Shown: positions 22,226 through 60,985 of the stretch, piece after piece | Numbering within the stretch: position 1 is the first letter of the stretch | Layout of the letters: each line of letters starts with the position of its first letter | NCBI RefSeq assembly: GCF_037042905.1 | Contig: NC_087250.1 | Span: forward strand, 8,682,001 to 8,746,000 | Direction: 5' to 3' | DNA from: Lytechinus pictus | Lineage: Eukaryota | DNA length: 64,000 nt | Program-made: the position numbers and the translations under genes | Notes under the pieces: model-generated | Databases searched by the model: none | Seen by the model: the letters and a program-made list of their open reading frames with translations, nothing else | What the model was told of the DNA's origin: nothing

Positions 22226-22236
22226 AAAAAAACTCT

Positions 22237-22511: not shown

Positions 22512-23912
22512 CTGAAGAAAAAAAAAGCAGAACAGAATTAGAATAAAAATGTTGTGTTCATAACTGTGGATGACAAACCTTTATAACTCATCTTTCCTTG
22601 ACTTGCAATATTAAATCCTCATATTTTTATATTTGCAAGTTTACTCAAGTCGTATCTCTTTACATGTCTACTTGTACTTTATTATTGTTTAGTTACATTT
22701 TCGTGCTATGGTCATAAAGGTATGCCTATTGCATTTTGAGGAGTGCGTTGCATGCATGAGTGATTCCATTGTTCAGTTCAGCTTATGGTCAAGAGTTTTA
22801 ACATTATTATCTCAGGAGTGATTCCCTTTTTTTTAAATAAATAAAACAATTAAATATAGACTCTCTGAAAAAAATGGCACTCGCTGATTACAGTGAATGG
22901 CACATTAAGAGTTGATATATAGGCCTACATGGATATTTTTATCAACCATTGGAATTGAGCCAGGAGGCTTTGTGTCACATTTTCTTTTTCTTTTGCCACT
23001 GACGTTCCAATGGTTGATATATTTTGTCTTGTATTGTTTATACTGGAATGTGTTGTTCCTTATAATTTCTTCGCCGAAAACATTTTTTTCATATTTATGT
23101 ATTCTTTGCCGAAAACATGAAATAAAGATGATAGCAATAGCAGAATAAATGAAACCATTCCTTTTCTTCCATGTATTTTTGGAATATTTTGTAATATTGG
23201 GGTTTTCCCACTTTATTTTAAGTTTAAATACCTGTAGCTGTAAATGCCAGCCGACACGCCTTCTTTTTGGTCAGGAATAAGTATGCTGAAGACTAAAGCC
23301 CATTTAACAGATGCAAGAATGCAACGCGGATCAGCACGAATCCTAGTCTAGATCTGGACGCTAGTAGTTATTTGTTCGAAATACCCTACACTCACTCATC
23401 GCACACAGCTACACACACACCCACATACTCACCCCCCCTCCCACACACCGTCTTTTCACTTGCTTATAGCGACTAAAGCTGCCAGATTATTTATGAACTA
23501 AGTTGAAAAAATGATAATTTCCATGAAAAATCAGGTGTTTCCTGAACGATGCTAAATATACATTGCGTACAGGGAGACAGGGAATATGTAACGTAGGACC
23601 TATTGACAAGAAAAATAATAAATTCAAGCACGAGAACGAGGCGAGAAAGCTTAATTTCAGAGAGTCTTTTTTTCCTTTTTGTATTTTGAGATAAACATTA
23701 TAAAGGATTACGTGGGTGTACGTTTGGACCATGAATACTAATGAAATATTCATGGGCGGAGAGCGTAATTTCAAACCAATTGCAGTTAAGATAACTCAAT
23801 AAAACTTTTTTGATTTTGAGACAATCAGGCAATTAAGACTTTGAAAAATAAAACACGTCCAATATTGGTAGTTTAATTCAAAGCCTCCAAAACAGAGTTA
23901 GCCCTTATCATA

Positions 23913-24148
23913 CACTGCAAAAACTCCGGTGTTGATTTAACACAAGCCCGGAATCTATATATGTCCACACCAGAGAAGTATTGAAACAACATCAGTTTGA
24001 AATCAAACCGATGCTGTTTTAATACTAATTGGTGCTGTATAAACACCTATCTGGTGTTGGACCAAAACGAAACTGGTGTTGTTTAACACTTCTCTGGTGT
24101 GGACATATATAGATATGATTTTAAATCAACACCGGAGTTTTTGCAGTG
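23913..24148. mobile_element. CACTG palindromic MITE in a FReD intron
   Basis: CACTG...CAGTG termini with a TA TSD. Confidence 0.9.
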
Positions 24149-24217
24149 TAGTTGGGGGAAAAATAAGCGTCCGGGGGCTCCCCTCCTGATCCGGTTGAGT
24201 ACGAATTTCCTTTAATT

Positions 24218-24482
24218 AGAGAGTTTTCGCAAGCACGACGCGGATGCCCTCTACATCAACGCACCGAATGCAAGTCAAAGTTGCACCGGACGAAAAATTC
24301 CAATATGTCGTTGTCCAGAGTCGGGAGACGATGACGCTGCTGTCCCGGTCCACCAACTTTCGACAAATGCATCTTTAGCTCTTCATTGTGATTCGAGTCA
24401 AATCATTTGACGTGCATTTTTAAAGAATTTGGCCGGTGCGTTGTATCATAGAGCGACCGCGCAGTGATTGCGAAAACGCTCT
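24218..24482. mobile_element. MITE directly adjoining the FReD exon donor site
   Basis: TIR AGAGAGTTTTCGCAA/TTGCGAAAACGCTCT. It ends about 7 nt from the GT donor at 24489. Confidence 0.6.
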
Positions 24483-24489
24483 GTAATAC

Positions 24490-24751
24490 CTGCGGTACCG
24501 GAATAACCGCTGGCGGTCAGGCTGAAGTGTAATGTTTCATTGCCAATGTGAAAGAAGCCGTAATTTGCGTATCGAGTATTCCCTTCGAAGCCTGCCAGAT
24601 CAACCCGCAGTTCGTAATTCCTCTGACTCGACAGTCGATGAATCATATCGTTGCCAAGCCAGTGCTCGGACGCGACACTTCCAAAACCGATCTTGTAGTC
24701 AGACCAGTTTCGGTTGAAATCCTCAGAACCATCTCTTCTACGTTGGAAAAC
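24490..24751 (-). CDS. Fibrinogen-related domain protein, middle exon
   Basis: CAG acceptor and GTATT donor. Reads VFQRRRDGSEDFNRNWSDYKIGFG...EHWLGND...LRVDL...GYSGTAG. Phases match the neighbouring exons. Confidence 0.92.
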
Positions 24752-26323
24752 CTGTTTTGTTTCGGAATGAAAGACAGTCATCAAAATTTACAAATGTACA
24801 TCAAAATAATGACGGCCCTATAGAAGATAGTTTCCGATGTTTCGTATAGGCCTATCGCAGTTCCATCAAATAATAGTTTTCCGTTTTCTCACTGTTTCGG
24901 AGGAAAATTTAGGGTATGACCTACATTCGGAATTGGAGACAGAGTTATAAATAAATAATTGACCTTGAAATTTATATTGTAAGGTTTGAACATCATGAGA
25001 ATGACACTGTCAGACGTTGAAGTAACGTCGTCATGATGCAGGTGCAAATTTTTCTAAGACTTTGATGAAACGTTATGAGAATAGCTGCAGCTAGCCTAGA
25101 CCACGTTCAACGTTGAAAGATGTAAATAATTGTTGACTTGATGATGCATGCGCGTGCACTTCTATTGATGATTCAAAGTTGTACCAACGATTTATTTATT
25201 ATCTCCGTATGGTAGAAAACTAGTGAAAATTTTGAAGGAGAAATAATTACGCTATATAGCTAAAAATGACCTACGTTTCTTGAAAATGACTGAAAATAAC
25301 CATAGTCCCATGCACGCACAATCAACAAGCACCCTCAAAGAGAAGTGAACGTGTAGAATAACGGAAAGTACGTTCAATGGATAGTACTCATTGAAAATAA
25401 ACCGAGTATTATACGGCAAATGAGTGGTTCTATGACATCTGCTCCGGCGACAATATTGCTCCGATGGAAAATCAATCTGCACGTTATTAAGCCAAACATA
25501 TAGGCTAAGCTAACCTCTAAAACAAAACAAACCCTAATCCTTATTATTTACATAGTTCTGAACCAAAATGTATATATCTGTCGTGTTGGGATCGGCAATT
25601 ATAATTTAGAAGGGAAGCGTAATGAAGAAACTTCGGAGAAAGTGATACAGTTCAAAATCACAGGGTATTTAATCATCAGTATTCAGCCACAGTTCGAAGT
25701 ACATGAAGGTTCAGATAAAACAGGAGACGGTGAATATAATTATTTCAAAGTATAAGATTAAATTCTGAAGTTAGACTAATATTGGATGGACGTCTAAGTC
25801 TTGAAGTCGGTCAATCTATATGGATGAGTGTGGGTCTAGTATTATACTTTATATCTTTTCTGATAATCAAGAAGTCTTATTTATATCATTAGTTTTGGGG
25901 TGTAACAATTTAAGGTGGGAGTGATCTCTAAACTTGATCTGATTGGTCTACAGGTAACTGTCTATCAAACTTTATATGGTAGAAGGGATGTGGTGATGCT
26001 CTGTGCAAGTGACTGGGGCTGGAAGTGTGGGTCATACGTCTTAGAACTTTTGCTCCTTGAAGTTAGCTGACGTCACTGAGGGTTGGTCTTTTACGCTCAA
26101 AGTTTAGGAGTTAAATGGTAATGGGGGTTTAGGAGTTCTTAGATGACATTGGGGGAGTTTGTAAACAAGTGAAGGTGAATGACTGAAAGGATAACAGGAA
26201 GTTAAATCTATACTACATAACATAACAATCCTAAATCCGACCCAATATGCCCTCTTAGATATTAAAACCGGAGCAAATGACGCTGAAGAAAATGTCGTGT
26301 CACCGGTAAGGTTTTCCACTTAC

Positions 26324-26472
26324 GGTCCAACCGCCCCCATCTGTCTCCATGTCACAATACACATTGGTATACTTCCCAGGGTATATGGCATATACACCAC
26401 TGACGTTCGCCCCACGACCCTGGATGTCCGCGCAGTCAACTGGTTTGCCAGGTGATGGACTTGTTTTCTCAT
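26324..26472 (-). CDS. Fibrinogen-related domain protein, first FReD exon
   Basis: Reads PVDCADIQGRGANVSGVYAIYP...VYCDMETDGGGWT followed by a GTAAGT donor (phase 0). The acceptor position is uncertain. Confidence 0.88.
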
Positions 26473-27663
26473 CTTGAAAAAGGTAAGTTAAAAGATATCC
26501 AAACACAGCTGCTCAAAATAGTGCTTTTAAAATCATACAAAATCGAATGAAATCGCAATCATTGACCATATAATACTGAATAAGACACGAACTGACAATC
26601 ATTTCATTCGTCTCCGCGATTTATGTTCTTTTTCCCAAGGGGGCAACATAATATAAATTTTCAATCAGCGTTGCCAGGTCCAAACTGAAGAAAATCCCAG
26701 AAGACACTCGAAAAATCCCCAAATTGGACCATCAATCCCCAAATTTTTCAAATCACAATCATTTCTGAAAAAGTGAGGATATTTATCATGGTTATTGCCC
26801 AAAACAAGTTAATATTTCTTTGTTTGTTCACATCATATACATAGCAGATTTTTTTAAATATTATTTTTACTTCTTAGGTTTCGATTTCGATGCAAAGTAC
26901 ATTGGCAACACGCACTACCATTGTATCGTACAACCATCTAAGTTCATACAGTGCCGGCCGCAGGAAACGTCACGCCCGAGCACGCAAACACCCTAGGGGG
27001 CTTTTGCGTCTAACCGAGGGTATTCAAGGGGAGCCCCCTAGGGTGTTTAGCCGCGCCCGCAGTTTCCTGCGTGCTATATAATATTGGCCGTGCCCGCACT
27101 TATCCTCGGGTACCCTAGGGTACGTACATTGCATTATGTATACATGTGCATGTACATCGGTTGAATTGCGCTGGTGTACATTCTATGATCTACAGTAGAT
27201 CGTACCCCTGTTTAATGAAAAATAACGAATCTTAGTGCTTTTCATCAACACCTTCAAAAATCCCCAAAATGCATGAAAAATCCCCAAATTTATTTGAATC
27301 ACCAAATAATTTTTTCCATTCCCAAAGGCTTCTCAAAATCCCCAAATGGCAACACTTTTTTTTAATGAGGATCAGGGAGATCGCAAGGGCTCCCTCCCTT
27401 CTCACTTTGAAGTTAAGGCGGTTTATCCACTTTTAATTCCGTGGGTTTGTCTAGATTTTATGCATGTGATCTTTAATAATTTGCTGACATAAGACATCAT
27501 GGACATAAATGTGAGTAGGTGGAGACTTGACATGACGCTATTCAGACTGCTGGTTCGTCGCCGTTTTAAATAATAAAACTGCTGCTTCAATTCTCTCCCG
27601 TGCTGGCAAGGGGAGAATTCTATATTTCAGGTATGTGTTGCTTTTACATATTAAGATTTTCTA

Positions 27664-29130: not shown

Positions 29131-29297
29131 GGAGAATGAAACCCTTGAAACCAGCTGAATCCATATGAAAGAGAAAAATCAAAGAAACATATTGTTGAAA
29201 GTTTGAGGAAGATTGAATTAATAATAAGAAAGTTATGAGCATTTGAATATTGAGATCACTAGTGCCATGTAGATCCTCCCATCGGCAATGCGACCAA

Positions 29298-31185
29298 GTA
29301 TAACCTTTCTCCCTCTGAAAGACAAGCTCTCCGTGAACTTAAAGAAAACAAGAATGTTATTATCAAACGAGCTGACAAAGGGTCAGCAGTGGTATTTCAA
29401 TCTAAACAGAACTATCTTTCTGAAGGCCATAGACAATTGAACACGGAGACATATAGGAAAACTGAGAGTGATCCTAACAAAGAGCATTTGAATCAAGTGA
29501 AAAAAGTAGTAAATGACATAAAGGTCCCAAAAGACATCAAGCAATTACTGATCCCTATCAAATCGGAATGCCCACAAATGTATTTTTTGCCCAAAATACA
29601 TAAATTGGGCAATCCAGGAAGACCGATTGTTTCCGGATGTTCTTGCCCTACTGTTCAAATATCTCGCTTTCTCGACACAGTATTGCGTCCATTGGTACAA
29701 CATACTAAGTCTTTCATACAAGACACAACACACTTTCTGAAACATATCTCCAAAATAAACTCAGAGGGCCCAATTCCTAATGGGATATTCTTGGTCTCAG
29801 CCGACGTCAAATCCCTGTATACCAACATTCCCCATGCAGATGGTATCCAAGCCTGTAAGAAAGCTCTTGAAAAACGGAGATCGAAAGATCCCCCTACTTG
29901 TGATATGGTTCGATTACTTGAACTAATTCTGAAGTTGAACAACTTTCAGTTTGCAGGGGAATTCTACATTCAGAACCAAGGAACGGCCATGGGCACTCCA
30001 GTTGCACCCTCTTATGCCAATATCTTTATGGCAGACTTAGAAGAGAAACTCCTCTCCTCAGTCTCACAACAGCCTTACAGATCATCCTGGTGTAGATACA
30101 TTGACGATATTAATTTTCTCTGGTCTGGAAACAGGGAGTCTCTTGACCAATTTATCCAAGCTGCCAATTCATTCCATCCAACAATCAAATTCACGTTTGA
30201 AACATCTAACTCTCAAGTTTCCTTCCTTGATGTTCTACTTTACATGAAAGAGAACGTTCTACAAACTTCTCTCTACTCCAAACCGACGGACACCCATGCT
30301 TATCTTCTTCCCGATTCATCTCACCCACACCATGTTTTCAATAGCATTCCTTATAGCCAGTCAATCCGAATAAGGCGCATTTGTTCCGAAGAAGCCAACT
30401 TTGAATCTAGTATCGCAGATCTGCAAGAACATCTCCAGAAACGTAATTACAATCCCCATTCAGTGAGCAAAGCCATCAACAAGGCTAAAGAAATCCCTCG
30501 GGATAACCTCTTACATTATAAGAAGAAAGACAAAACAATGAAGAGAACACCTCTTGTGCTCACCTATCACCCCAACCTGCGTAAAGTTGCCCAAATTGCT
30601 CGCAAACACATGGACATTCTTCATCAATCTGAAGTGACAAAGGAAATATTTCCAGAACCGCCCCTTATCGCATTTAGACGATGCCGCTCTCTTCAAGACT
30701 TATTAGTATCGTCCCGTGTTTCAGTCAACTCTGAAAACAATCAGAGTGAACACATGGGCTCATCCAAATGCGAAGCTAAGAAATGTTGTATCTGTCCATT
30801 CATGTTGAACACTAAATATTTCGTAAGCACAGTAACAGGAGAGAAATTCCCAATTACTCAGCAAATCAATTGCAAATCTTCATGGGTATTATATCTCATT
30901 ACTTGCAAACGCTGCAACAAACAGTATGTCGGGAAGACTACTAATACACTGTACACAAGAATGTGCAACACACGATCAGACATAAAGAAATATCACACGA
31001 GTAGACGCAAGGAAATCCCAATTGCTGCCCACTTCAGTTCTGATAATCATTCCACAGATGATATTCAAATTGTAGGAATAGAACTTATCAGAAAACAGCA
31101 TGAATCAATCATACTCAAACGAGAGTCATATTGGATTCTGAAACTTAAGACACTTGTACCAAACGGCATCAATGTAGAAGAATAG
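29298..31185 (+). CDS. Penelope-like retroelement ORF (5'-truncated): RT + Cys-rich linker + GIY-YIG endonuclease
   Basis: The frame is open from 29298 (YNLSPSERQALRELK...IIKRADKGSAVV). RT motifs LPKIHK, GRPIVS, DVKSLYTNIP, GTAMG and RYIDD. Linker C-x4-C-x2-C...C. GIY-YIG region VLYLITCKRCNKQYVGKT...R...E..WI..L.T..PNGIN. Confidence 0.93.
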
Positions 31186-40124: not shown

Positions 40125-40445
40125 GGCCCGTATTCTGAACTCGGGATTAAATTAAACCCTGCCTGGTTTAAAGTTGTGGTTTAGCTATATGGAGAGTCAA
40201 TTTGGGCACAAATCCCTATTACAACACATTCAATTCATTATCTCACACGACACCCACATTGTTCATAGTTGTCTGTGAATTATATCTGAAGTATTTTTAT
40301 TCATTATGAAAGCAAAAGGGAACAAAATGATAAACATAAGAGATAATACAATATAAACATTTATTTTTTTATTTTTTGGCTTCCCATAATTTTAGCACAG
40401 AGTTAGACCGTGGTCTAAATTAAAGCTGACTTCAGAATACGGGCC
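40125..40445. mobile_element. Harbinger-like MITE (GGCCCGTATTCTGAA family); other copies at 47726-48626, ~54447-54704, 56644-57689, 59607-60529 and ~34700-34975
   Basis: TIR GGCCCGTATTCTGAA/TTCAGAATACGGGCC and a shared internal sequence. Confidence 0.85.
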
Positions 40446-41453
40446 AATTTGTTTTACAGGTGTACGTTGGTATTGGAATTGGTGATTATTTTCCATATCA
40501 CAACATAAAAAATCAATACAAGGTAAATGTATATGTACAAAATAAAAATGAAAGGTATAGTGAAATGGCTGGATAAGCCCACTCAGCTTTGTTGATATAA
40601 CAACGCTGTTCTTCCCTGGGGTCCAGAGCATGCATAATAAATTGTATTGCATTACCTATGCATAATATTACATTAAATTCCTATTAACTCAGCTCCCTGT
40701 ATGGGTCAATTTTCCCTTGAATTAATCGATATCCCTTATTATATTCATTCATCCCTTTCTCCTCTCATCAATCAATCTCCCTTTTTTTCCACATATCGTT
40801 ATTTTTTTCTCTCTTTCTTGACGTCTTCATTTATTTTCACCTCTCATTCTCCCCTCTCATTTACCGATTCCCATAGTCAGAAGGTAGACTGTCGATTATC
40901 TGTTGCCAACCCGTCCACTCATTATGGTCCCGCATATGGTCTACCTTCATTTAGTCTAATGCCATCCCGTCTATCAACATTTCGTCGAGCACCGGCCCAT
41001 TTGGTCCAATAACCAATTTGTCCAGTAATCACTTTGTCTATATGACCATTCCCTCTCATCATAACAATAGGTCTAATACCCAATAGGCCTATGGACTACG
41101 TAGCCAATGGACCAACTGGTTATATAAATGGACCCGGTAGGAAGCTGTGTGCGCTATGAACGCCTAGCTTAGCCGGGTAATATAGGAGCACCTTGAGCAC
41201 CTAACAAGGTGGATATGTGCGCAATATAAATACCCTATATTAGTATTATTATTATTATTATTATTATAGGAAATGGTGGGTGGTCGGAATGGTTTCAACA
41301 TCGTGTTTTTGTGTGGGACCCACATGGGCCCCATATGGGTTCCCATATGGGATCTATGTACCGTTTGCACCCGGGTTCCCAAATGGGTTATGCGTGGGTT
41401 GGAGGTCTCGTTTTAATATGGATGCCACATGGGCCCAATCAAAAGCATGTGGG

Positions 41454-41672
41454 TTTGATTTGATTTTATTTATTTCTGCATTCACATCAGTATTAGAATT
41501 ACAAAAAACATATCTTCAAAGTTAATACATATAACAAAATAATAATAGTCGTACAGTATAAATATTGTAAATAAATATCAACAAGATGTGTTATATTTTT
41601 TCAAAACAAGATAAAACGAATGCAGCTAGGAGACCACCATCGTGAGCGATTAGGCTTGATGATGGAGGCCTC
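41454..41672 (-). mobile_element. 3' tail fragment of a Crack-like LINE
   Basis: TTTGATTTGATTTTATTT tail plus a GGAGACC...GCTTGA...GGCCTC stem-loop resembling 828-1077. Confidence 0.6.
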
Positions 41673-42643
41673 AGGGTTCATTTTAAGAAAAAAATAATTA
41701 GGCCTAGTGTCATAAAGGTGATTGAAGCACATTCTTACAACTCTATAGGGCCTACTCTAAGCCATTTTATCTTATCCTATCGTAAATCCTACATTCTAAT
41801 CCTGAATCCTAGTTCTATAATTATCCTACATCTATATCCACCGAGACCTGTCAGGCCTACTTGACAAATTATGGTTAACAATTTTCCATATTTAACCCTA
41901 AAACATTCTTCTAAAATTAAATGTCATGACAATGAATTAAACCCTTATCATTGGCACGCCAGACATATATTCTTGAATGATGGAGGATTTTTTTTCTCAC
42001 ATAGTATATATTATATTGATACTAGGATATACATTTGGTTTTGCAACAAATTGGTGTTTTGGGTTGTTTTATTTTCTCATTATTTTGTTTTCTTCGCCCG
42101 GAGCTGCATTCCCTTTCATTCTCACTTTCCATTTCCCCCCTTTTCTTTAATTTTTTCTTCTTTTCTTTTATTTCCTTATCCAACTTATTTGGATCCTCCA
42201 CGATTTGTTAAAGCCTGCAGTTACACTAAAGGCACGAAACTCGCGTGAGAATTCCGTGGTCAAAGGCCTCGATGCCTCATTGGTCAAAAGTTCCATGTTT
42301 TACAAATAGCTTTCCATACATACAGCCGCGAAACCACGCAGGTGGAGTGAACAGGTCAGGAGGTGAGATTTTCAAGTTTACAATTTATTTTTTCCCGGGG
42401 ATTTTTCACTTCAATTTTACGAGAGTTTTATTGTTAATGCGAAGCGTAAATGTCACTGTTCTCTTCTTTTGACTCATAGATACCCGTCTTCTGACTTAAC
42501 TTAGCCTTAGTAACTTGTAGACGATCCCAATTCGCACTCGGTCAATTCACGACTTTTCCACGTGTCCCCACATGTTAAAAAATATGTTGGAACTTGGATG
42601 AGCAATTGAAGACGTGATTGTAACTGCGCGGGCCGGAGCTCCC

Positions 42644-44610
42644 CACTCTAGGCGACACCCCAATACTTACCCGTGCTAATAAACTGGGACTCCACTCACG
42701 CGCATTTGGGCCGCCCTAGCTTAGAACTAAGCTTTGTTTTACTGAAAAATAAATCTTGTAATGATTCAATAAATGTTACTGTTAGGCCTACTTAATAAAT
42801 TAGTACTGTTAAATCGGTACTCACCGGTTCTTTTCTTGAATTTTCTGGCAATTTCCCACGCTTCTGGCTTCAATTCTGCGGCTGTTCCTGTCGCGGTAGA
42901 CAGCTACATATGCAACTTTATTTATAAATAGAGCGCCCCTTACGATAGTTGTTAAGAACGCGGCCAAATTGTTAGGTTTTTTGCACTGTGTCCAAGGCGT
43001 TTTTATTTTGTTTGATTTTTATTTTTTAATAAATATTTTGTTAAATAGCGATTTTTACGTCAAATATTAAATTCATATCACAAAATATTTTTAATTGTAG
43101 AAATATATATAATATCATGCAATTATTTATTCTATATATATTTTATAATAAAATTTATAATTGTTGCGGTCTTTAAAAAAGGATAGTCGATCGATCAGGT
43201 GATGACTACTCGTATCACGTGATCTGAAAATCAGCTTCGTACCGCTTTGATCGCACTCGACGGGACCGGACTGACTGCCAAGAAAAGATCGAAAAAGGAC
43301 TCAAATGTAAGTTTCCCTTTATTTTATAACTTTTAAAATATGAGTAGGGTTATAGTTAATGGGTAATTTTTTAATAAATGCTAAACAAATGAGGACAAAG
43401 CTTGCATTTTTCGAGTAATAATCACTAATATCATAAAAATACTTGGGTGCAGGACTTCTAACCTGTTTTTAACGCATTGTCGCCTATGAGGTCCATACAT
43501 GTTAATGTTTGGACCTCATTGGTACTAGGAGTGGAGCTCCCTGGGTTAGTAACAGGTAAGTGTTTAAACTAAGGGAAGAATGTGCAGATTTTTTTTACAG
43601 CAAAAGTAGATTTTCATAACTTACACAAAATGCAATGAATGGGGCTGTGTAATACCTTTTTAAGTGCATTGCGCTGCTATGTGCGGCAAGGCATGCCCTT
43701 TAATTATACATCATTTTATCCATGAAACCACTCCTAGTACCAATGAGGTCCAACATTACATGTATGGACCTCATAGGCGACATCAGTAGTATTTTTGGTT
43801 AGAAATCTCTGAGAACAGGATATTTAGCCTATATATTATATCACAAGTACAAGCTATATTCCTTTCTCTTATTTAAATTATAATTTTATAGTGTAAATGC
43901 ATCGTTAGCAACAACAAAAAATGAAAGAAATGAAGGGGAACTTACATTTTCACGGCTTTTTCCTGATTTTCTGGGCAGCTGCTCTTCTCTTCTGACTCGC
44001 GATCGAAGCTGATATGAAGATCACGTGATTCGCGTTCTCGTCAGCTGATCGGTTGGTTATTCTTTTCGTCAGACGTTAATAATATATATTTTATAATGCT
44101 AGCATTCATCGCTAATTTAGGTGAAAGAGATTGAAGTTAAACAGCGCCAGGTCGGAATCATAATTATTTTGGAAGAGTGTATTTATACACTCGATCTCAT
44201 ACCTGACGTAGACGGCGCTATTCAACAAATGCACAATCTTCAATATAAAAAATAAAACAGAAAGAACGCCTTGAACACAGGCCAAAATGCCTAACGATTT
44301 CTCCGCGGCATTAACAACTATCGTAAAGGGCGCTCCATTTATCAATAAAGATGGATGCTAAGCTGTCTATGGCGACAAAATTTGCCGCAAATATTTACGA
44401 AGAATTGTGAGAAATGGTCTGAAAATGCAACAAAAGAACCGGTGAGTACCGATTAAACATTATTAAAGTTGTAAATAGATTATACATACCTTGTAGATTT
44501 AGTTTTTAAGGTGATATTAGTGCTTAGTTCTAAGCTAGGGAGGCCCAAACGCGCGTGAGTGGAGTCCCAGTTTATTAGCACGGGTAAGTATTGGGGTGTC
44601 GCCTAGAGTG
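42644..44610. mobile_element. 1967-bp foldback element with ~88-bp near-perfect TIRs starting CACTCTAGGCGACA
   Basis: 42644-42731 versus 44522-44610 are inverted. Further mirrored islands occur at 42815/44452, 42930/44335, 43214/44029, 43300/43950 and 43478-43536/43728-43781. No TSD is visible. Confidence 0.75.
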
Positions 44611-44906
44611 CATGAAACTTCGAAGTTTCTCATGGTATAGGTTTCTATAGGGTTTTTCCTCCTTTAATTGCTTCATACTTGTTTTATACATTACATGTAC
44701 ATTGTACATATTGTGAGCGTACAGACAGATACATTACAAATTCTGGAAGTGGCATTTCACCGAACTCCCTAATGTCAATGATTGACTTTGCATTTGGCAA
44801 GTCCAACTTGAACTAAGTCAGTTTGTAATGGTATAATCCTGATTTTTTTTTTATCCAGGTTTGATTTGAGTACATACTGTATATAAAGGACTACAATTGA
44901 ACAACC

Positions 44907-44947
44907 ATGTTTGCCAGGGCTGGATCCAGGATTCTCCTATTACGAAA
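44907..44947 (+). CDS. DIABLO: DIABLO/Smac-like, first coding exon (mitochondrial presequence)
   Basis: Acceptor poly-T-ATCCAG at 44858 and ACC-ATG start. Reads MFARAGSRILLLR(K). The GTGAG donor is phase 2, matching the next exon. Confidence 0.75.
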
Positions 44948-47471
44948 GTGAGCATTTTTTTTCATTAACAATGTTAACAACGAGTCGTACAACGTGCGGC
45001 TATGTTAATAACATAGCCACGCGTTGTACGACTCGTAGGTAGGACCAGGGCCCTCTGCACTGTGCAACACAGGCAGTACGTGCTAACACCAAGCATTCTG
45101 GGATTTGGCAGACAGAGCACCACCTTCGTTTGCAGTCCATGAAAAATGCACCTTTATTCTAGTAAAAAATTCTCTGGAATCAAAATTGCCAAGATAAGAA
45201 TATATTTCTACTACAGGTTTTTCTTGAGAATTTAGCAAGAAATAGGCAAAATATGGTGAGATTGGACCATCTTTCAGCTTACGTAGTTGTACAATAATCC
45301 TAGACAGTTGGCAGCCGTCTGTTTCGAGGAGTTTTTAAACATTAAAAAAAAAATTCACCTCGTACACAGACGGCTCGCGATCGTGCAGCCGCCATTATGG
45401 GTTAACAATGCAAAATCCCCTGATTTTTGTCTTTTTTTCATGAAATTAAATAAAAAGAACTGTACCAAAATAAAGATTATTCTGTTTTGGCCTGAAATGC
45501 ACCAAAACGAAAGAAATAAACTTAAAAGAAAAAAAACCAGAGACCTCGGCTGTCGCACAACTCCCATTTCCCTGGTTTATCTGAACTTAATACATAAACA
45601 TATGGCCATTGGGTCTCTGTACAGATCGAGTTTGAACTTCGGTCTCTGTAATTGGTAAGTGGAGCCAACGGAGTTTAGCGGAACAACCAATATAACAGAG
45701 ACCGAAGCTTTTGGTCTACAATATTCCTAGTTAATTAACGAAATGAGAAATTGTTAGTAATTTTTTAATGATGCACCATTCTTTACCTTTGTTTCTCAGC
45801 ATTTTTATTTTGAATGAGATAAAAATATGGTCTATTTTAGACTTTTGCACCACTGGTAATATTTAAATCTCAGAGAGCCCTGGGTAGGACAACAAATTTA
45901 GAAAGGCAAAGCTCTTAAAATTGTCATGAAAATACATAAAAATAATCCTCAAGATGAGTAAGGTCCTGAAACATAAAAATTTCTTAAAAGTTACAGAAGT
46001 TCCGTAGAGTAAAGTGCTTAAGCATAATTGCACCAAACAAAATTACAATCATTGAATCTGATAAAAATCATGTGCATTTCTGTAGAACAAATGTTGAATA
46101 TTAATATAAAAAAATAAAATTGAAAAAAATATAGTATTAAAAAAACAGAAATTATTTACTTTCTACCAGAAGCTTGTTTTTTGCCAAATATCGGATGCAG
46201 TTTCCAAATATCAGTCACATAATGTTTGGCGCCGCGATCGATTTCAGCGATTTTAATCACGCTCTAAACCATAAAATAATTGCTTGATTTTTGAGAAAAT
46301 AACTTGTATCAGCTGCGCAAATGCCTATTATATTTATAATTATTTCTCTCAATGATTTTGATATAAAAATAGGTAAATAATAATTATTTACTTACCAAAC
46401 GGACCTCATTAGGCTTTAAACGTTGGACGTCTTCGCTCAGCTGAGGGCGACTTCGTTCTGTAAACGAGCGGGTGTGCATCAACAGCACGCATTTCCAATT
46501 CAATCGGCCGATTTGTCTGATGTTTGGGAGAGTGCCATATTTGGAAGGGTGTTGTATTTCCCGCCATGGGGAACCCCCGCCGCGGCAATTGCAGATTTTC
46601 TTGTGATAAATCAAACATGTGCGATCTCGGTGGCGATATCACTTCCCCCTTATGAGATTTTTTGGTCATTGATCTTTTGGAGCTCCAAATTAGCGAGGGT
46701 CATAAGAATCTTTGGAAGTCTAATTCATGGATTTAACCCCTTCTCTTCTCTTCTTGGGTTTTGGTTTCCTTTAAGTGACTCTCAACATGGTTTTCAAACC
46801 AAGAGATCCTGTGAAACCCACTCCTTCAATGAACAAATTTATGATATACATGTACATGTAACCTTGTTCTCTGTTAGGACTCCCTGTGTGGGGAAAAAAC
46901 ATTGGCAAAGTTTGTCTTATTTACTCTTGTTCTTGGGGACAAACACTTGATTTTTTTAACATTGAGTTTCCAGTACAACTATTCATCATATAACTCGGCT
47001 CTGTAGTAAATTAAATTATTTAAATTATTTTTTTTTATAAATTAAATATAGAGATTGTTGAATGACAATTTTCTTGCAATTTTACTTTCCACCAATAAAG
47101 GTTCTACACAAACAAATCTTTAAAAATACATTTTTTTAGCACTCTTGTGAATAAAAAAAAAAGATACCCAAGTTACTAATGAAAAATAAATCACAACTAT
47201 ATAATGAAAATAAGTATTTTTGGTTACAAAAGTGATATTTTAAAGAATTTTATTTAATGTGTGTTGTGTACTATGTACAAGGAGATCAAAATTCATGTTA
47301 AATGTGAATGCCAGAAGAACAAAACTGTTTATTTTGAAATTAACTTTATAAATGAATATTTTCTTCTTATAATTACAGGAAAATAACATTCTGTGTATAT
47401 CAGAATGCATGCAACCGATGGAGGCATGGACTCGCATCTACACAAAATACTTCACTCCTGTTTATTCACAG

Positions 47472-47562
47472 AGTGTTCAGACGAGCAGGACTAGTAGGAT
47501 TGGGAGGATTATGTGCTCTTCCTGTTCACAATGTAAAGGAGGCTGGTGTGAAAGGATTGCCT
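47472..47562 (+). CDS. DIABLO: DIABLO/Smac-like, exon with the processing site and IAP-binding motif
   Basis: CAG acceptor and GTGAGT donor. Reads VFRRAGLVGLGGLC-ALPVHN..., which parallels human TLC-AVPIAQK. Confidence 0.85.
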
Positions 47563-47976
47563 GTGAGTATGGCAAAAATCTGCATCCTTCAGTGATTCAT
47601 TCACACAAGATTTGATAATGAATATTTGTTTCTTTTTCTTGCCGTTATTTTTTAAGTAAGTGCTGCGTAGTATTATCGATTTGTCAAGATAGGGAGATAA
47701 TTCATCTTGCCAAGTAAAAGTTATTGGCCCGTATTCTGAAGTCAGGTTTAACTTAGACCACGGTCTAAGGTCTAACTCTACTAAAATTATGGGAAGCCTG
47801 CAATTCAAAAATTATGTTTATATTGTATATTTCTTATGTTCACTATTTTGTTTCCTTTTGCTTTCATATTGAAGAAAAATATAATTCCCAGAGAGTTATG
47901 AACAATTCGGGTGTCATATGAGTATATGAATGTGCACTGTTAGGGATTTGTGCTCAAATCGGCTCTCCGTAGTTAA

Positions 47977-48570
47977 AGGGGAATCCAACCCAAATAAAAA
48001 CTTGTTTTAGAAGAAAAAGAAAAATCAGACAAGTTGATAGGTGAAAGTTTGAACAATATTGGACAAACAACCAGAAAGTTATGAATTTTTAAAAATTGTA
48101 AATATTGGTAATCACTATACTCATGGAGACTTCAAATTGGCCGCATATGGGATGTCATAGTGATGTAAGGCAAGGACTACTCTTCCATGCACTCCAATAC
48201 ATATTATGGCTAAAATGTCATTTTTCCCAAAAATTTTATTTCAAATTATATTTTTCATTCATGAGGACATTAAACAGTATACTATCTGGGTTATATTTTG
48301 ATTACTGCCCCAGGGGAATGGGTACTTAGGAGAAAACCACAAATCCCTGATAATAAAGTACATGGCCTATGGGAAAGTTGTCCTTGCCCCTTGTCATAAT
48401 TTACTTACCCAGTTGCCAATTTGAAATCTACATACTATTAGTGATCTTAATTTTAAAGCAGCTATAACTTTCTTATTGCTTTTCCGATTTCTTTAAAACT
48501 TTCACCATTCTGTTTAATTTATTTTTATCCTTCCCAACACAACATTTTATGGCCAAGGCTGGATTCCCCT
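47977..48570. mobile_element. Kolobok-like MITE (AGGGGAATCC family); copies at 51283-51877 and 59766-60368 in the opposite orientation
   Basis: TIR AGGGGAATCCA/TGGATTCCCCT at TTAA-like sites. The three copies of ~595 bp are highly similar. Confidence 0.85.
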
Positions 48571-49309
48571 TCAAAGCACAACTTTAAACCAGGGTTTAAT
48601 TGAAACCCGTGTTCAGAATACATGCCATTATGTCAACAAAGCAAGATGCGCTATCTCGCCAAGTTCACATAATTTATTATATGAAAAGTTGTATGTCAAC
48701 ATGGCCAGATACGTTTTCTCGCCACAGTGACATAAAATGGTAAATGGCAAAATTAATTTTGTATCCACACGCGCACATGTATTTTTCTGTGTTGTCAACC
48801 ACGCTGCGGTTTGGATTCATTTCTCACTGGCGCACTTAATCACAAGTCACAACAATATCAGGAACGTTGTCAACTGAAAATTTCTGAGGAATTTAATATT
48901 GATAATAATGATTATAACATAAAGACGCTTGATACAGACATTTCTAAGCGCTCGATTTTTCTGATTATTAATTACCGGGATTGTAAAGTGTAATCAATAA
49001 AACCAAATAAATGAAAAAAATTACCAAATCTCAGGATAAAAAGAAACAAACAATATGAAATAAACATGTGCACCTCCATATCTAGACCAACCCAAGGCCA
49101 CAACTGATATACAGAAATATCTAGATATCTAGCACTTAATGAAACTCATGTTTGATCTCGAGTTAGAATTTCAGGTGCACAGACATCAGTCCTTCACCTT
49201 TATAATTTTGTGGAGCTCAATAAATCGCTCTCATTTATTTTTTCAGATTCACTCAACTACAGGAGCTCAATTTAATAAACATGTATGCTAAATTGTAAAT
49301 TTTTCTTAA

Positions 49310-50843
49310 AGGAGAAATATATTGAAAATCGTAAAAATGGAGAATCATATATCAAATCAAAGGAGAAAATAAGGAGAACACGATGGTGTACATCATATAT
49401 CATGGAGACCGATGGAACTCAGTTAATTGATAGTTTAAAGTTCTCTCTCTGAATGCTTCAAACACGCAGAATTACGTCCGCGAAATTGGGGATTTTTTAT
49501 GACGTCACTTTCTGTACGAGAGGCGTGATTGGCTCTCCCACGTGAAGCTCCACTTGCATGCAAAACCTGTTGCGAGGCTACGTTTTCTCCACACTGTCAC
49601 TGAATACTTCGATTACGAAATGAAAGAAAACCCAGAATTTTATCTAGATTTGGATTTTCTAATTGATGATTTTGAAGATGAAGAGAATGATGATGAAATG
49701 AACAACAAAGTGACGTAGTTGGAGGTAAATTGGGGGAATTACGCCGATGATGATGAGTCGGACAATTCAACTTGCAACACGATCACATGCCGATTCGCTA
49801 CCTAACTCATGCAGCTGCTAAGTGCTAGCTACACCGCGCGGGCCAAATTGAATTCATGAAAATGAATTACCACACTGTCCAGACAGAGTCTCTTACCTCT
49901 GTGACTATGAAGAAGGAAAATAATGATAAAACTGTACAAATAAGTGAATGTAATCCGAACCTGAAGGCAAATCAACTCAACGAATAGCAGCAGACGATAT
50001 GCACCGATGATAAACTTCATGTGGCTGGGATAGATTGTCACTGGTTCTGTTAGATGTAATTTTTATCTCATTAATTTGACAAAATTACGAAACTCAGGGA
50101 ATTATTTATCTATATAAAAATATAGTAACATCTCGTATAATTTTTAAATTACGATAAAACGTTTTTTGAAGGAAAACGTTGAGGTAAATTAAAATTAGAT
50201 GTAAAAGATGCCCAACATGTGTAGCTTGATTGAGAGCTGTGCAACACGTGCATAGATCTACCCTCTCAGCCAAGGTGATCAAGCAATACGGCATGTTTGT
50301 GATTTTGATTACGATCACATATACAAGCTTTTAAAAGGTTGCATGAGTTAGGTAGCGAATCGGCATGTGATCGTGTTGCAAGTTGAATTGTCCGACTCAT
50401 CATCATCGGCGTAATTCCCCCAATTTACCTCCAACTACGTCACTTTGTTGTTCATTTCATCATCATTCTCTTCATCTTCAAAATCATCAATTAGAAAATC
50501 CAAATCTAGATAAAATTCTGGGTTTTCTTTCATTTCGTGATCGAAGTATTCAGTGACAGTGTGGAGAAAACGTACCCTCGCAACAGGTTTTGCATGCAAG
50601 TGGAGCTTCACGTGGGAGAGCCAATCACGCATCTCGTACAGAAAGTGACGTCATCAAATTCAAGTCAATTCAGAGACCGATGCGAGGCATATTTCGGAGA
50701 GGCATTTTGAGCGTTTTTTAATCGGCGATTTTCACCTTATGTATTATTTTCGTTATTTTTTAATAACCCACTGATAATCCCCACATCATTACCTTTCCAT
50801 TGACATATAATGAGACCACATTCATAATCAATATAGTTCTCAT
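49310..50843. mobile_element. Kolobok-like element with an internal 315-bp inverted duplication
   Basis: TTAA on both sides and imperfect TIR AGGAGAAATATATTGA/TCAATATAGTTCTCAT. Region 49499-49813 mirrors 50340-50654. Confidence 0.65.
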
Positions 50844-50867: not shown

Positions 50868-52916
50868 CAAGCCTTGAAATAAGTGGGCGCTGAGCGCAAA
50901 TTCGCGCTCATAAAGCCAATGTAATTTAAATATCTGTAAAGCCAAAATCAAGTAACTTTCAATTTACAATAAACACAGTTTAAAATTGCCAAGTGCGTCT
51001 TGTTTTCTGTACCATAAACAGTGAGCTACGTCCGTCTTTTTTTTTCTGTAATACATGTGCGCGCGTGCTTCCGGTAGCGGTTTTTCCATACTTCACCATG
51101 TGCAATTTCTAATGCATACATTTCCAGTTAGGATATCACAATTCTGCGATATAGTAATTCGAATTGCACAGGAGATAAATCCCTATTCACAGCACATACG
51201 ATGTGCGAGTCTTTTATCCTCATAGTCGCCGACTTTGCTTGTCAAAACGGAGCCTTAATAATCCAAAATCACTTAGCTTTAAAGGGGAATACAACCTTGG
51301 TCACAAAATCTTGTGTTTGAAAGGAGAAAAATAAATAAAATAGAATTGTGAAAGTTTGAAAGCAATCGGACAAGCAATAAGAAAGTTATGGCTGTTTTAA
51401 AGTTGAGATCCCGAAGACTATGTAGATTTCAAATTGGCAACTGGGTAAGAAAATTATGACAAGGGGCAAGGACAACTTTCCCATAGGCCATGTACTTTAT
51501 TATCAGTGATTTGTGGTTTTCTCCTAAGTACCCATTCCCCTGGGGCAGTAATCTAAATATAGCCCAGGTGGTATATTGTTTAATGTCCTCATGAAAGAAA
51601 AATGTAATTTGAAATAAAACTTTTCGGAAAAATGACATTTTAGCCATAATATGTAGTGGAGTACATGGAAGAGTAGTCCTTGCCTTACATCACTATGACA
51701 TCCCATATGTGGCCAATTTGAAGTCTCCATGGTTATAGTGATTACCAATATTCACAGCTTTTGAAAATTCATAACTTTCTCATTGTTTGTCCGATATTGT
51801 TCAAACTTTCACCCATCAACTTGTCTGATTTTCCTTTTTCCTCTTAAAACAAGTTTTCGTTTGGGTTGGATTCCCCTTTAATATAGTTGTGAATTGTAGC
51901 TTTTTAATTTCTTTCCTGGAGAGGGGTAAATATCACACAATAAATCATCAAACAAGGCTCCATCTAAAAAAAAGTAGGACGCCATGCACTTGAGTGTGGT
52001 GTTAGCTAGCCAGTATGAGCTCATGTTCTCTGCCAGAGCTCTGGGTGAGAATTTTAAGTAATGGCCTAAGTGATGGTGATTTTCCGTTTCAGATAGAGTT
52101 TAGATTTCATGTTAATTTTTGAAAACTGTCAAAAAACTTTATGATTTCTTCATTATGATGAATATTTAAGTTATTAATGAATACATTTTCACCGAATTTA
52201 GACTCTCCCAGAATGAGAGGCATTTTCTGTGGAGATCTGCGTTTTCAAATAACTTGTGAAAAACTTAAGGTACGTGAACCTACAATACATGTACATAGCC
52301 TGTGGCTATGTGCTGAAATTTGAATAGACTGAGTTAGATATTGATTTCATTTCTTTATTTCTTTAACATAATTTTTATGCAATCCAAGTGCACCTCACAG
52401 TCACAATCACACACAAACACTCACCCACACCCATGATTCTAACCATGAAAAAAAAACTTAAAAATTATTAATTTTTTTATAAATTTATTATTATTTGATC
52501 TGAATTCTCTCTTTCTCCATCTCTCTCTCTTTTTTTATATTTTTATTTCATTCATTTATTTAGATTTTTTTTTTTTGGGGGGGGGTTCATTGTTCGTGGT
52601 TCATTAAAGATGAAAAATAAATGAGCCCATGTGTGTGTGGTTGTAAAGGGGATGTGCAGTGAGGGTGTCAAAACACACTTAAACATTTAAATCTGATTTC
52701 TTAAATGTTTGAAGAAGCCTAATACTTAGCATACATGCTATTCATGTACTAATTAAAAAATTGCAGGAGCTGCGCTTACTATAAACAAATTTGTGGTGTG
52801 GTTCACCGTTATGTATATTTTTAAAATTGCCCCCGGTTCCTGTAAAAAGCCTGTGAGCCGGGGGCAATTTTTTTAAAAAATTGCCCCCGGCTCACAGGTG
52901 CTTATTTCAAGGCTTG
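50868..52916. mobile_element. Non-autonomous hAT element with a nested Kolobok-like MITE
   Basis: TIR CAAGCCTTGAAATAAG/CTTATTTCAAGGCTTG with a perfect 8-bp TSD AATAGCTG (50860-50867, 52917-52924). Confidence 0.9.
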
Positions 52917-54112: not shown

Positions 54113-54448
54113 CATAATTCCTTGAAATTATTTTTGTTTAGTAGAAAACTGTCAGGAAAATGAAGAATATTCAGCTCTTTTTTTTTTTTACTCTTGATTG
54201 TTGTTACAATCGGTAAGTATTGTACATGTAGTTCCACATGTAGACTTCCATGGTGTTGCAACACAAACTGAAAACGATCGTTGATCGTTATTGATCGTAT
54301 TATACTTGGTCAACACCATGAAAATCTACATATGGGACTACACTATTTACCACGTTTACCGTCATAAATCAGAGTCAAGAAAGAAGTGAATATTCTTCAT
54401 TTTTTCAGTAGTTTCCAACTAAATCAAAATAATTTCAAGGAATTATGA
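54113..54448. repeat. Degenerate foldback MITE
   Basis: CATAATTCCTTGAAATTATTT...CATGGTGTTG is mirrored by CAACACCATG...AAATAATTTCAAGGAATTATG. Confidence 0.7.
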
Positions 54449-54737
54449 AGTCAGGTTTAACTTAGACCGTGGTCTATCTCTGTGCTAAAATTATGGGGAG
54501 CCAAAATAGTCAAAATTGTTATTAAGTTGTATGTTTCTTCATTTATTTAATATACTTCCAAGACAATTATGAATGATTTGAGATCCAAATGAGCTGAAAA
54601 ATGATATCTCTACTGTTAGTGATTTATGTAACAATTGGCTATCCATACTAAAACCACAACTTTAAAACTGAGTTTAAGTTAAACCCGACTTCAGAATACG
54701 GGCCAATGTGTTCATATTTTCATATTACTTCTTCTAG

Positions 54738-54869
54738 AAAGTTGATCCAGATGCTTTGACCAGTACTACACTAATCAAGAATGCTGCGGCCATGACGGTT
54801 GATGCTGCTTCTGCACTTCTCACCCAAACGTTTGTAGCTGTCATCGACAAGTACAAGGAACTTGCAAAG
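54738..54869 (+). CDS. DIABLO: DIABLO/Smac-like, 132-nt exon
   Basis: KVDPDALTSTTLIKNAAAMTVDAASALLTQTFVAVIDKYKELAK aligns with human [46 protein letters not shown]/GT boundaries, phase 0. Confidence 0.88.
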
Positions 54870-56480: not shown

Positions 56481-56612
56481 GATACTGAGCTTCTCATGGA
56501 TAGAGTTCAGAAGCATCGGCAAGTAGAGAATCTTGGCTACCATTCTGAAGAACTGTGGGAAGAGGTCATCAGGGCAAGGGTCAACATTGATGATCGCAGA
56601 CATGAGCTACAG
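56481..56612 (+). CDS. DIABLO: DIABLO/Smac-like, 132-nt exon
   Basis: ...HSEELWEEVIRARVNIDDRRHELQ aligns with human [25 protein letters not shown]/GT boundaries, phase 0. Confidence 0.85.
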
Positions 56613-60739: not shown

Positions 60740-60985
60740 GACCTTGAAGCTATTTTAAACAGCGCCCTCTTAACCCTGGAGGCAGCATCCGAAGCAGCCT
60801 TCCAGGCCGGCAACGAGGAACTAGCCATGATGGGGCGAGACAGATGCCAGTACGTCAACACGCAGATCGCCCTGACTCGAGCCGTCATCCAGAAAGCGGA
60901 GACTGCTCTGGTGAAACTGCAAGCGGAGACTATCAAGGAGACCAAAACAGAGATGGAGGATGCAGATGCAGGCTCCTGTAAATAG
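60740..60985 (+). CDS. DIABLO: DIABLO/Smac-like, last coding exon
   Basis: EAASEAAFQAGNE...QKAETALVKLQAE aligns with human EMAAEAAYQTGAD...RKAETKLAEAQIE. Polypyrimidine CAG acceptor and TAG stop. Confidence 0.9.
   Translation, partial: DLEAILNSALLTLEAASEAAFQAGNEELAMMGRDRCQYVNTQIALTRAVIQKAETALVKLQAETIKETKTEMEDADAGSCK

What the first reader, a model, noticed from the sequence alone, without database searches (positions are those of the whole stretch)
42644..44610. Foldback whose conserved islands are mirrored promoter and splice-donor modules, positioned to supply DIABLO exon 1
Seen: between near-perfect outer TIRs and near-perfect inner arms the two halves are strongly diverged, yet they keep mirrored islands. 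These include outward-facing donors (CCG|GTGAGTA at 44442 and minus 42824; CGG|GTAAGTA at 44584 and minus 42670), inward-facing donors (AAT|GTAAGT at 43307 and minus 43945), ATCACGTGAT E-boxes (43214, 44020) and four TAGGCGACA motifs. The first coding exon of DIABLO has an acceptor only 248 bp downstream, so it needs an upstream non-coding exon. Inference: each arm is a bidirectional promoter cassette, and the element could drive DIABLO on one side and a divergent transcript on the other. Inversion between the TIRs would swap which arm faces the gene.
Basis: partly seen in the sequence, partly recalled or inferred. Interest (0 to 1): 0.7.

Follow-up and report, generated by a model that had tools for sequence, protein, structure and literature searches.

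The report
Twin transposons, one supplies DIABLO exon
The apparent hairpin element is really two separate small jumping genes that landed back to back in front of a sea-urchin cell-death gene (DIABLO/Smac), and in one RNA data set the gene's message starts with an exon taken from the left one, a new example of a known way in which transposons lend promoters to host genes.

Summary
42644-43533 (A) and 43729-44610 (B, reversed) each have their own perfect 8-bp target-site duplication; the whole span has none. They are two independent insertions of a ~0.89-kb non-coding DNA transposon family, 68% identical, 195 bp apart, so the mirroring comes from opposite orientation. The gene is DIABLO (PF09057). 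In one RNA-type assembly (X1) the DIABLO mRNA contig begins with 28 letters of A, spliced GT..AG from 43306 to 44859. This is A's inward donor, not B's outward donors. Two raw RNA runs showed 0 reads for that joint at low depth, and the 28-letter side is under the tool's bridging limit. Sense reads of the family drop across this donor (pooled p=0.0013 and 0.035). No divergent transcript or inversion was seen. Best reading: a young MITE-like element (ends most like P-type BuT5; superfamily unproven) carrying a promoter plus donor that supplies a DIABLO first exon in some animals. The scan's index held no look-alike of either copy.

The parts
42636..42643 (+). Left copy of the 8-bp target-site duplication of element A (GAGCTCCC)
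   Evidence: Identical to 43534-43541; only 2 occurrences in the window. One X1 contig runs from 42643 straight into the 8 letters of 43542-43549, the pre-insertion junction (table 5c)
42644..43533 (+). Element A: 890-bp non-coding DNA transposon, 5-bp terminal inverted repeat CACTC, 9-bp subterminal repeat at offsets 6 and 48
   Evidence: longest ATG frame 52 aa; matched by contigs with 0-4 other letters in X1 and X7 (table 8)
42644..42732 (+). Left end of A (98% identical to the left end of B); holds an outward minus-strand donor-like site at 42670
   Evidence: no stable fold (z 0.30); no joint from it shown
42810..43060 (.). Conserved interior island 1 (77% and 68% A vs B) with minus donor-like site 42824 and a CRE-like motif at 43056; use not shown
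   Evidence: the motif name is recalled
43171..43306 (+). Inferred promoter and first exon of A: CpG-rich (8.1 per 100 vs 2.6 in the window), E-box at 43214; start site not mapped
   Evidence: X1 contig 43162-43306 ends exactly at the donor (table 8)
43279..43306 (+). The 28 letters that open the X1 DIABLO mRNA contig; unique to A in the window
   Evidence: side 28; record 8 has exon 3 at 118-301, so 117 = 28 + 89 letters precede it; next best window match 19/28, B 18/28
43307..43312 (+). Splice donor GTAAGT of A, start of the 1552-nt intron to 44858
   Evidence: Joint 43306 to 44859, GT..AG, 1 contig, depth 12.4, X1 only
43478..43533 (+). Right end of A with a subterminal hairpin (96% identical to B over 56 columns)
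   Evidence: fold z -5.5, 0 of 200 shuffles as stable
43534..43541 (+). Right copy of A's duplication
43534..43728 (+). 195-bp spacer of target DNA with a 9/9 consensus donor at 43556 (possible older exon-1 donor; use not seen); its right part resembles another expressed repeat
   Evidence: reads with other letters at 43669-43701 and no joint from 43555 shown
43721..43728 (+). Left copy of the 8-bp duplication of element B (CATGAAAC)
   Evidence: Identical to 44611-44618
43729..44610 (-). Element B: 882-bp second-subfamily copy in reverse orientation, inside the intron; its own E-box (44020) and donor (minus 43945) point away from DIABLO; outward donor-like sites 44442 and 44584 not seen used
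   Evidence: X7 contig of 542 letters with 0 differences, X1 contig of 475 with 1
44611..44618 (+). Right copy of B's duplication
44859..44947 (+). DIABLO first coding exon (ATG at 44907)
   Evidence: joint 44947 to 47379 in 6 reads of X21, 1 read of X23 and 1 contig of X1
47379..47562 (+). DIABLO coding exon 2
54738..54869 (+). DIABLO coding exon 3
   Evidence: PF09057 E 6.4e-05, 22.9 bits, under the 25-bit cut-off alone; frame
56481..56612 (+). DIABLO coding exon 4
   Evidence: Frame and splice sites only; no Pfam hit alone
60740..60985 (+). DIABLO last coding exon
   Evidence: PF09057 E 2.6e-08, 34 bits; Smac structure 1few E 3.6e-05

Best explanation
Two members of one non-autonomous cut-and-paste DNA transposon family, from two diverged subfamilies, inserted independently 195 bp apart and in opposite orientation at the 5' end of DIABLO (shown by sequence). 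Each moves through a transposase made elsewhere that reads an unlike left and right end and makes an 8-bp staggered cut (inferred). Each carries about 530-660 bp in from its left end a CpG-rich promoter, a short non-coding exon and a splice donor, most likely inherited from the 5' end of the parent's transposase gene (inferred). With no transposase exon left downstream, the donor splices to the next good host acceptor. For A, which points towards the gene, that is the acceptor at 44858, so A gives DIABLO a first exon and skips the rest of A, the spacer and B as a 1552-nt intron (shown in one assembly; that the RNA starts inside A is inferred). The protein is unchanged, because the host ATG lies in the next exon. 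B points away and is intronic cargo. My odds: two insertions 0.97; joint real in X1 0.8; start inside A given the joint 0.75; A is the main promoter in all animals 0.3.
For: Two different perfect 8-bp duplications and none around the whole. Pre-insertion junction of A in an X1 contig. A-type and B-type contigs with 0-4 other letters in two studies (table 8). Joint 43306 to 44859 with GT..AG at a predicted donor and the exon's acceptor; same depth (12.4) as the contig carrying the next exon joint, and 28 + 89 = 117 letters fit that record. The 28 letters match only A. An X1 contig ends exactly at 43306. Sense-strand reads fall across the donor while antisense reads fall much less: X21 15 to 1 (p=0.0098), pooled p=0.0013 at 43349 and 0.035 at 43331. 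The mirrored bin in B is richest in B-sense reads (23.2 and 23.9 vs 2.75-13.2 in the neighbouring bins). No plus-strand acceptor-like site in A upstream of the donor under my filter, which favours a first exon. No RNA depth above 0.9 over 41666-42553.
Against: The joint rests on 1 contig in 1 of 4 runs. Its short side (28, or 30 with 2 shared letters) is below the 31 letters the tool asks for, the tool marks 'between: not known', and I laid at likeness 88. X21 and X23 show 0 reads for it, with an exon depth of only about 4.5 and 1.7. X23 alone shows no significant drop (p=0.088 and 0.54). The strand counts come mostly from other family copies (13 of 15 and 15 of 32 sense reads carry another letter at 43239), and reads may overlap both places. 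X1 is only guessed to be RNA. The empty-site contig leaves this locus after 8 letters, so it may be a paralogue. No start site was mapped, no transposase was found, and copy number was not measured (no genome).
Confidence: 0.7

Rival explanations
1. DIABLO keeps an older host first exon (for example 42500-42643 plus 43542-43555, using the perfect donor at 43556, or an exon further upstream). A landed in or near it, and the A-derived exon is a minor or haplotype-specific alternative.
For: 9/9 donor at 43556 in target DNA, 14 bp after A's right duplication. 0 A-joint reads in X21 and X23. One or two sense reads in 42332-42553 in X21 (depth 0.88). An A-less junction exists in X1, so A may be polymorphic. 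This rival is compatible with the joint being real.
Against: No joint from 43555 among the 15 of 24 shown. The X1 mRNA contig runs unbroken from A into the coding exons. The A-less contig does not continue into the 43556 donor.
Confidence: 0.45
2. The two insertions are real but inert here. The X1 joint is a rare cryptic splice or an assembly product, and the conserved islands are only remnants of the parent transposon.
For: One contig, short side, absent from 3 of 4 runs. A note on another young element of this genome found no use of a similar promoter-donor (e1-7881321, unchecked).
Against: The joint lands exactly on a consensus donor and on the exon's acceptor and opens the mRNA contig itself. 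28 + 2 shared letters equal the overlap expected at a branch of a 31-letter-word graph, so words across the joint must be in the reads (inference). There is a strand-specific drop at the donor in X21.
Confidence: 0.15
3. One foldback element with diverged arms and a bidirectional cassette in each, invertible between its outer repeats.
For: Outer 89 bp at 98%, mirrored islands, weak outward-strand excess. Inverted copies can in principle recombine, as BuT5 pairs did in Drosophila (PMC3698922, passages).
Against: Separate duplications for each half and none for the whole. Each half is near-identical to its own family of contigs, so the 32% difference predates insertion. Both outer ends are left ends. 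No strand-changing joint shown and no leftward transcript.
Confidence: 0.02

Closest known systems
BuT5, a MITE mobilised by a divergent P element in the Drosophila repleta group (PMC3698922; abstract and passages read)
   Same: About 1 kb, non-coding, 3-bp terminal repeats with 16-17-bp subterminal repeats, 8- or 9-bp duplications; two species' consensuses 67% identical overall but about 91% at the ends. Here: 0.89 kb, 5-bp terminal and 9-bp subterminal repeats, 8-bp duplications, 68% overall and 96-98% at the ends.
   Different: BuT5's subterminal repeats lie at near-equal distance from each end (32 and 30 bp); here they are at 6 and 46-48, and one end has a hairpin. I did not compare sequences. 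No parent transposase is known here. The passages I read report no promoter or donor in BuT5.
Drosophila P element and its deleted derivatives (review PMC7776569; passages read)
   Same: 8-bp duplications, unlike left and right ends, non-autonomous forms of 0.5-2.8 kb, and insertions concentrated around promoters, which would explain two hits in 195 bp at a gene start.
   Different: P has 31-bp (zebrafish 13-bp) terminal repeats; here 5 bp. My THAP-site-like pattern (recalled) was not found at the ends.
Maize Mutator outward-reading promoter (bioRxiv 10.1101/2023.06.05.543741; abstract read)
   Same: Works like it: a DNA transposon inserts at gene 5' regions and supplies a promoter that keeps the gene expressed (20 of 33 alleles there).
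   Different: Mu transcripts do not depend on orientation, and Mu has ~215-bp terminal repeats and 9-bp duplications (PMC2774946, search listing). Here the promoter is internal, depends on orientation and leaves by splicing.
KDZ transposons: Zisupton, Dileera, Kyakuja (PMC12730594 and bioRxiv 10.1101/2025.05.19.654958; passages)
   Same: Zisupton and Dileera make 8-bp duplications; Kyakuja has CA..TG ends without terminal repeats; Zisupton-like proteins occur in sea star (PMC9297572, passages).
   Different: Kyakuja makes 7-bp duplications; fungal KDZ1-3 have 139-241-bp terminal repeats. The original Zisupton paper was not held, so its end structure was not checked.
TE-derived alternative promoters and chimeric transcripts (PMC10620055; passages)
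   Same: A transposon adds a start site and splice site to a host gene; at least 1300 such promoters are cited there for Drosophila.
   Different: This case is a sea urchin, an unclassified DNA element and a two-subfamily pair; it lacks start-site mapping.

Membership tests
Single foldback transposon | One target-site duplication around the whole unit | tested here: not met
   No 2-10-bp match between the outer flanks
Single foldback transposon | Arms continuous to a central loop, without internal insertion boundaries | tested here: not met
   Each half ends in its own terminus plus duplication
Non-autonomous cut-and-paste DNA transposon (MITE-like) | Terminal inverted repeat and target-site duplication | tested here: met
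   5-bp repeat and 8-bp duplications on both copies
Non-autonomous cut-and-paste DNA transposon (MITE-like) | No coding capacity | tested here: met
   Longest ATG frames 52 and 33 aa
Non-autonomous cut-and-paste DNA transposon (MITE-like) | Many homogeneous copies | tested here: inconclusive
   Near-identical contigs at depth 8-38 in X7, where most flanking DNA is not seen, and variant reads in RNA; the tool says depth is no copy number; no genome
P superfamily (P, BuT5-type) | 7-9-bp duplication with short terminal plus subterminal repeats | tested here: met
   against PMC3698922 and PMC7776569; not specific to P
P superfamily (P, BuT5-type) | Ends shared with an element encoding a THAP/P transposase | not testable with these tools
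   No genome; no true relatives in viral or metagenome scans
P superfamily (P, BuT5-type) | THAP binding sites near both ends | tested here: inconclusive
   A recalled Drosophila-type pattern hit only 43570 and 43970; other THAP domains may read other sites
hAT | 8-bp duplication | tested here: met
hAT | 12-16-bp terminal repeats starting CAG/CAR | tested here: not met
   Here 5 bp starting CAC, against the table rows seen in PMC3014272 and PMC12637253; a small sample of hAT families
KDZ / Zisupton | 8-bp duplication | tested here: met
   PMC12730594
KDZ / Zisupton | KDZ transposase (PF18758) in a parent with the same ends | not testable with these tools
   No genome; original description not held
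CACTA/EnSpm, Chapaev, Transib (CMCT) | CAC ends with a 2-5-bp duplication | tested here: not met
   CAC ends present but the duplication is 8 bp (PMC12730594)
Transposon-derived first exon | Spliced joint from the element into a host exon | tested here: met
   1 contig in 1 of 4 runs, short side 28; provisional
Transposon-derived first exon | Capped start site inside the element | not testable with these tools
   No start pile-up listed (table 6); needs CAGE or 5' RACE

The most novel reading that the evidence does not exclude
The family is a promoter-replacing element. It favours gene starts (two subfamilies hit within 195 bp) and has kept a portable promoter, non-coding exon and donor under selection in its non-autonomous lineage while the DNA between decayed to near background. 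An insertion in the sense orientation would then leave the host protein intact and take over its 5' end, a 5' counterpart of transposons that splice themselves out as introns. It would swap promoters on many sea-urchin genes, and DIABLO would be polymorphic for its promoter. The X1 contig that ends at the donor with far more depth (99.8) than either known continuation (17.9 and 12.4) hints at further splice partners.
Probability: 0.15. Interest if true: 0.72.

Novelty: new member of a known kind. Interest (0 to 1): 0.42.

Why it matters
It corrects a tempting misreading: a mirrored structure with conserved islands can be two reversed insertions. If the splice holds up, a young and probably polymorphic DNA transposon supplies the first exon of a core apoptosis regulator without changing its protein, which allows a direct carrier versus non-carrier test of promoter replacement. 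Transposon-lent promoters are well known, so the case is instructive rather than unprecedented. The open point of wider interest is why two subfamilies, diverged almost to background between islands, both kept the promoter and donor.

Tried and rejected
Whole-genome copy search: no genome held. End motifs in viral contigs: 0 matches in two scans. Metagenome contigs: 0 for the left end; 19 for an 18-mer of the right end, and all 19 matched for at most 25 letters in DNA of 44-66% GC, so were rejected as chance. No further copy of A or B in the window. Rfam on 41500-45500: 4 matches, all far below gathering score, none inside the promoter island; a small-RNA gene or a Dada-like snRNA target is not supported. 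No RNA holder was listed as such for 42000-48000; X1-X4 are guesses. Spacer donor 43556 as exon 1 was my first guess: no joint seen, so it is kept only as a rival. The joints 41920 to 41382 and 47366 to 43140 were set aside as probable repeat matches. Helitron was considered for the 3' hairpin and rejected because of the 8-bp duplications (that Helitrons lack them is recalled). Paper searches listed no description of this family or of a transposon at echinoderm DIABLO; one search was swamped by unrelated hits, only top listings were seen, and Repbase and Dfam could not be searched, so the family may already be catalogued. PMC3706591, PMC9977147, PMC11071193 (passages) and PMC13678858 (abstract) added nothing to the assignment. 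No supplements were read; end sequences in the figures or supplements of PMC3698922 and PMC12730594 could bear on the superfamily.

Full report
Observation. The outer arms are 89 nt at 98% and the inner arms 25 and 26 nt at 100%. The mirrored islands are real. Aligning the halves gives 77%, 68%, 71% and 81% identity in four segments and 51-55% between them, against 48% (maximum 50%) for 20 shuffles. Donor-like sites of 7/9 or better occur 85 times in the window (0.66 per kb per strand), so single sites mean little; their conservation in both halves is what counts.

Structure. The unit is not one foldback. No duplication of 2-10 bp surrounds 42644-44610. GAGCTCCC lies at 42636-42643 and 43534-43541, and CATGAAAC at 43721-43728 and 44611-44618, each directly against a CAC...GTG end; both matches by chance is about 7e-10 at fixed ends. 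So there are two elements: A (42644-43533, 890 bp) and B (43729-44610, 882 bp, reversed), 68% identical over 934 columns, with 195 bp of target DNA between them. Each has a 5-bp terminal repeat, a 9-bp subterminal repeat at offset 6 from the left end and 46-48 from the right, and no frame over 52 aa from an ATG. The right end folds into a hairpin (z -5.5 and -4.9, 0 of 200 shuffles each) and the left does not.

Public data agree. I laid 4 of the 23 listed runs on 41000-47650 at likeness 88. One X1 contig passes from 42643 directly into the 8 letters that follow A's right duplication, which is the pre-insertion junction. It then leaves this locus, so it may be another haplotype or a paralogue. 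Among the 16 of 502 pieces shown, A-type and B-type contigs have 0-4 other letters (542 letters of B with none in X7); two pieces with 19 other letters at 44421-44582 look like A-type sequence laid on B (inference). In X7 the elements are covered at depth 8-38 while much flanking DNA and both exons show none. I read this as two young multicopy subfamilies, but the tool warns that depth is no copy number, and X7 carries a different organism label.

The gene. Five exons (44859-44947, 47379-47562, 54738-54869, 56481-56612, 60740-60985) with AG/GT borders give a 244-aa frame from the ATG at 44907. Of 4 exons scanned, the last hits PF09057 Smac_DIABLO (E 2.6e-08), one hits it below cut-off, one has only an unrelated weak hit and one has none; the last also matches solved Smac chains. 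The joint 44947 to 47379 is in 6 reads of X21, 1 of X23 and 1 contig of X1, with first mates on minus, which fixes the RNA on the plus strand. That the host is a sea urchin comes from other notes of this scan and was not tested.

Which donor feeds it. One joint into 44859 is listed: from 43306, skipping 1552 letters, GT..AG, in one X1 contig of depth 12.4. The 965-letter contig of the same depth has the second coding exon at letters 118-301, leaving 117 = 28 + 89 letters before it. The 28 letters match A alone (next best 19/28; B 18/28). Among the 15 of 24 joints shown, none starts at B's outward sites (44441, 44583), at the spacer donor (43555) or at A's outward sites. Against it: the short side is under the tool's 31-letter limit, and X21, X23 and X7 show nothing for this joint. 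Exon depth in the raw runs was only about 4.5 and 1.7, about 6% of each run was read, and only 24 of 501 loose ends were shown, so another upstream exon in those animals is neither seen nor excluded.

Family-level support. Sense reads fall across the donor while antisense reads fall much less: X21 15:10 at 43239 against 1:9 at 43349 (p=0.0098); X23 32:13 against 5:7 (p=0.088) or 10:6 at 43331 (p=0.54); pooled p=0.0013 and 0.035. Many of these reads come from variant copies and are not fully independent. An X1 contig of depth 99.8 ends exactly at 43306, where X7's contigs end at 43293. The mirrored bin of B has the highest B-sense depth (23.2 and 23.9; neighbouring bins 2.75-13.2). The stretch 43171-43306 has 8.1 CpG per 100 letters against 2.6 in the window, and no acceptor-like site precedes it in A under my filter. 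Minus-strand RNA depth over 41666-42553 is 0 in both raw runs, so no divergent transcript is seen. The leader would hold two short upstream frames (6 and 9 codons), one made by the splice itself; both stop before the main ATG.

Mechanism. Shown: two insertions, their boundaries, the gene, and one spliced joint. Inferred: a transposase from elsewhere moves the elements; the promoter, exon and donor derive from the parent's transposase gene; with the coding exons gone the donor takes the next host acceptor; in A this gives DIABLO a new first exon and an unchanged protein, while B lies reversed inside the intron. I put this at 0.7. That an older host exon is still the main one in many animals is a compatible rival (0.45); an inert pair 0.15; one foldback 0.02.

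Comparison. The architecture is closest to BuT5, a P-dependent MITE (PMC3698922, abstract and passages), and P elements favour promoters (PMC7776569, passages). KDZ/Zisupton also makes 8-bp duplications. The hAT ends I could compare are longer and start differently, and CACTA-type groups make 2-5-bp duplications. With no transposase in hand the superfamily is unassigned; my estimate is P 0.45, KDZ 0.25, hAT 0.2, other 0.1. In function it works like the Mutator promoter that keeps maize genes expressed (abstract), but through an internal, oriented promoter and a splice.

Verdict. The foldback and inversion reading is wrong; the idea that an element donor supplies DIABLO exon 1 is provisionally right, by a different donor. 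It is a new member of a known kind; interest 0.42. The boldest reading not excluded is a promoter-replacing element family (0.15; interest 0.72). Nine paper searches listed no description of it, but Repbase and Dfam could not be checked. The scan's index had no look-alike sequence.

Noticed in passing
window 47510-47530 (DIABLO coding exon 2): The frame reads ...GLC-ALPV..., resembling the cleavage site and IAP-binding start of mature human Smac (recalled), so the urchin protein may keep an IAP-binding motif.
   Followed up: no
run X7 laid on window 42644-44610: X7 has another organism label yet holds B with 0 differences over 542 letters and lacks both DIABLO exons: low coverage, filtering, a mislabel, or elements shared between species.
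   Followed up: partly
window 43787-44025: An X7 contig skips 237 letters of B, removing its E-box-to-donor exon region: possibly a shorter family member without the promoter module.
   Followed up: no
window 42777 and 43825: Common family variants lack 12 letters at 42777 (A) and 5 at 43825 (B) in X1, X7 and raw reads.
   Followed up: no
window 40125-40457 and 47714-47971 (also 54435-54710): Inverted copies of another repeat family flank the DIABLO 5' region at 7.3-7.7 kb and recur in later introns; they look like separate copies, not one large element.
   Followed up: partly
window 49495-50658, inside 47970-48577 / 51276-51883: 319-nt arms at 99% around a 526-nt loop, nested between 608-nt inverted copies at 89%, in a DIABLO intron.
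   Followed up: no
window 44975-45041: A 67-bp palindrome just after the first coding exon; the weak miRNA-family match (30 bits vs cut-off 100) reflects the hairpin only.
   Followed up: partly
window 41142-41270: The end of a highly expressed repeat with a TAT-repeat tail: about 1500-1800 reads per raw run join here from outside sequence.
   Followed up: no
window 1546-4572 (-), 8332-9423 (-), 29263-31185 (+), 22058-26512 (-): Long frames that look by eye like a LINE ORF2, a LINE ORF1, a Penelope-type RT with GIY-YIG end, and fibrinogen-domain exons; names recalled, not scanned.
   Followed up: no
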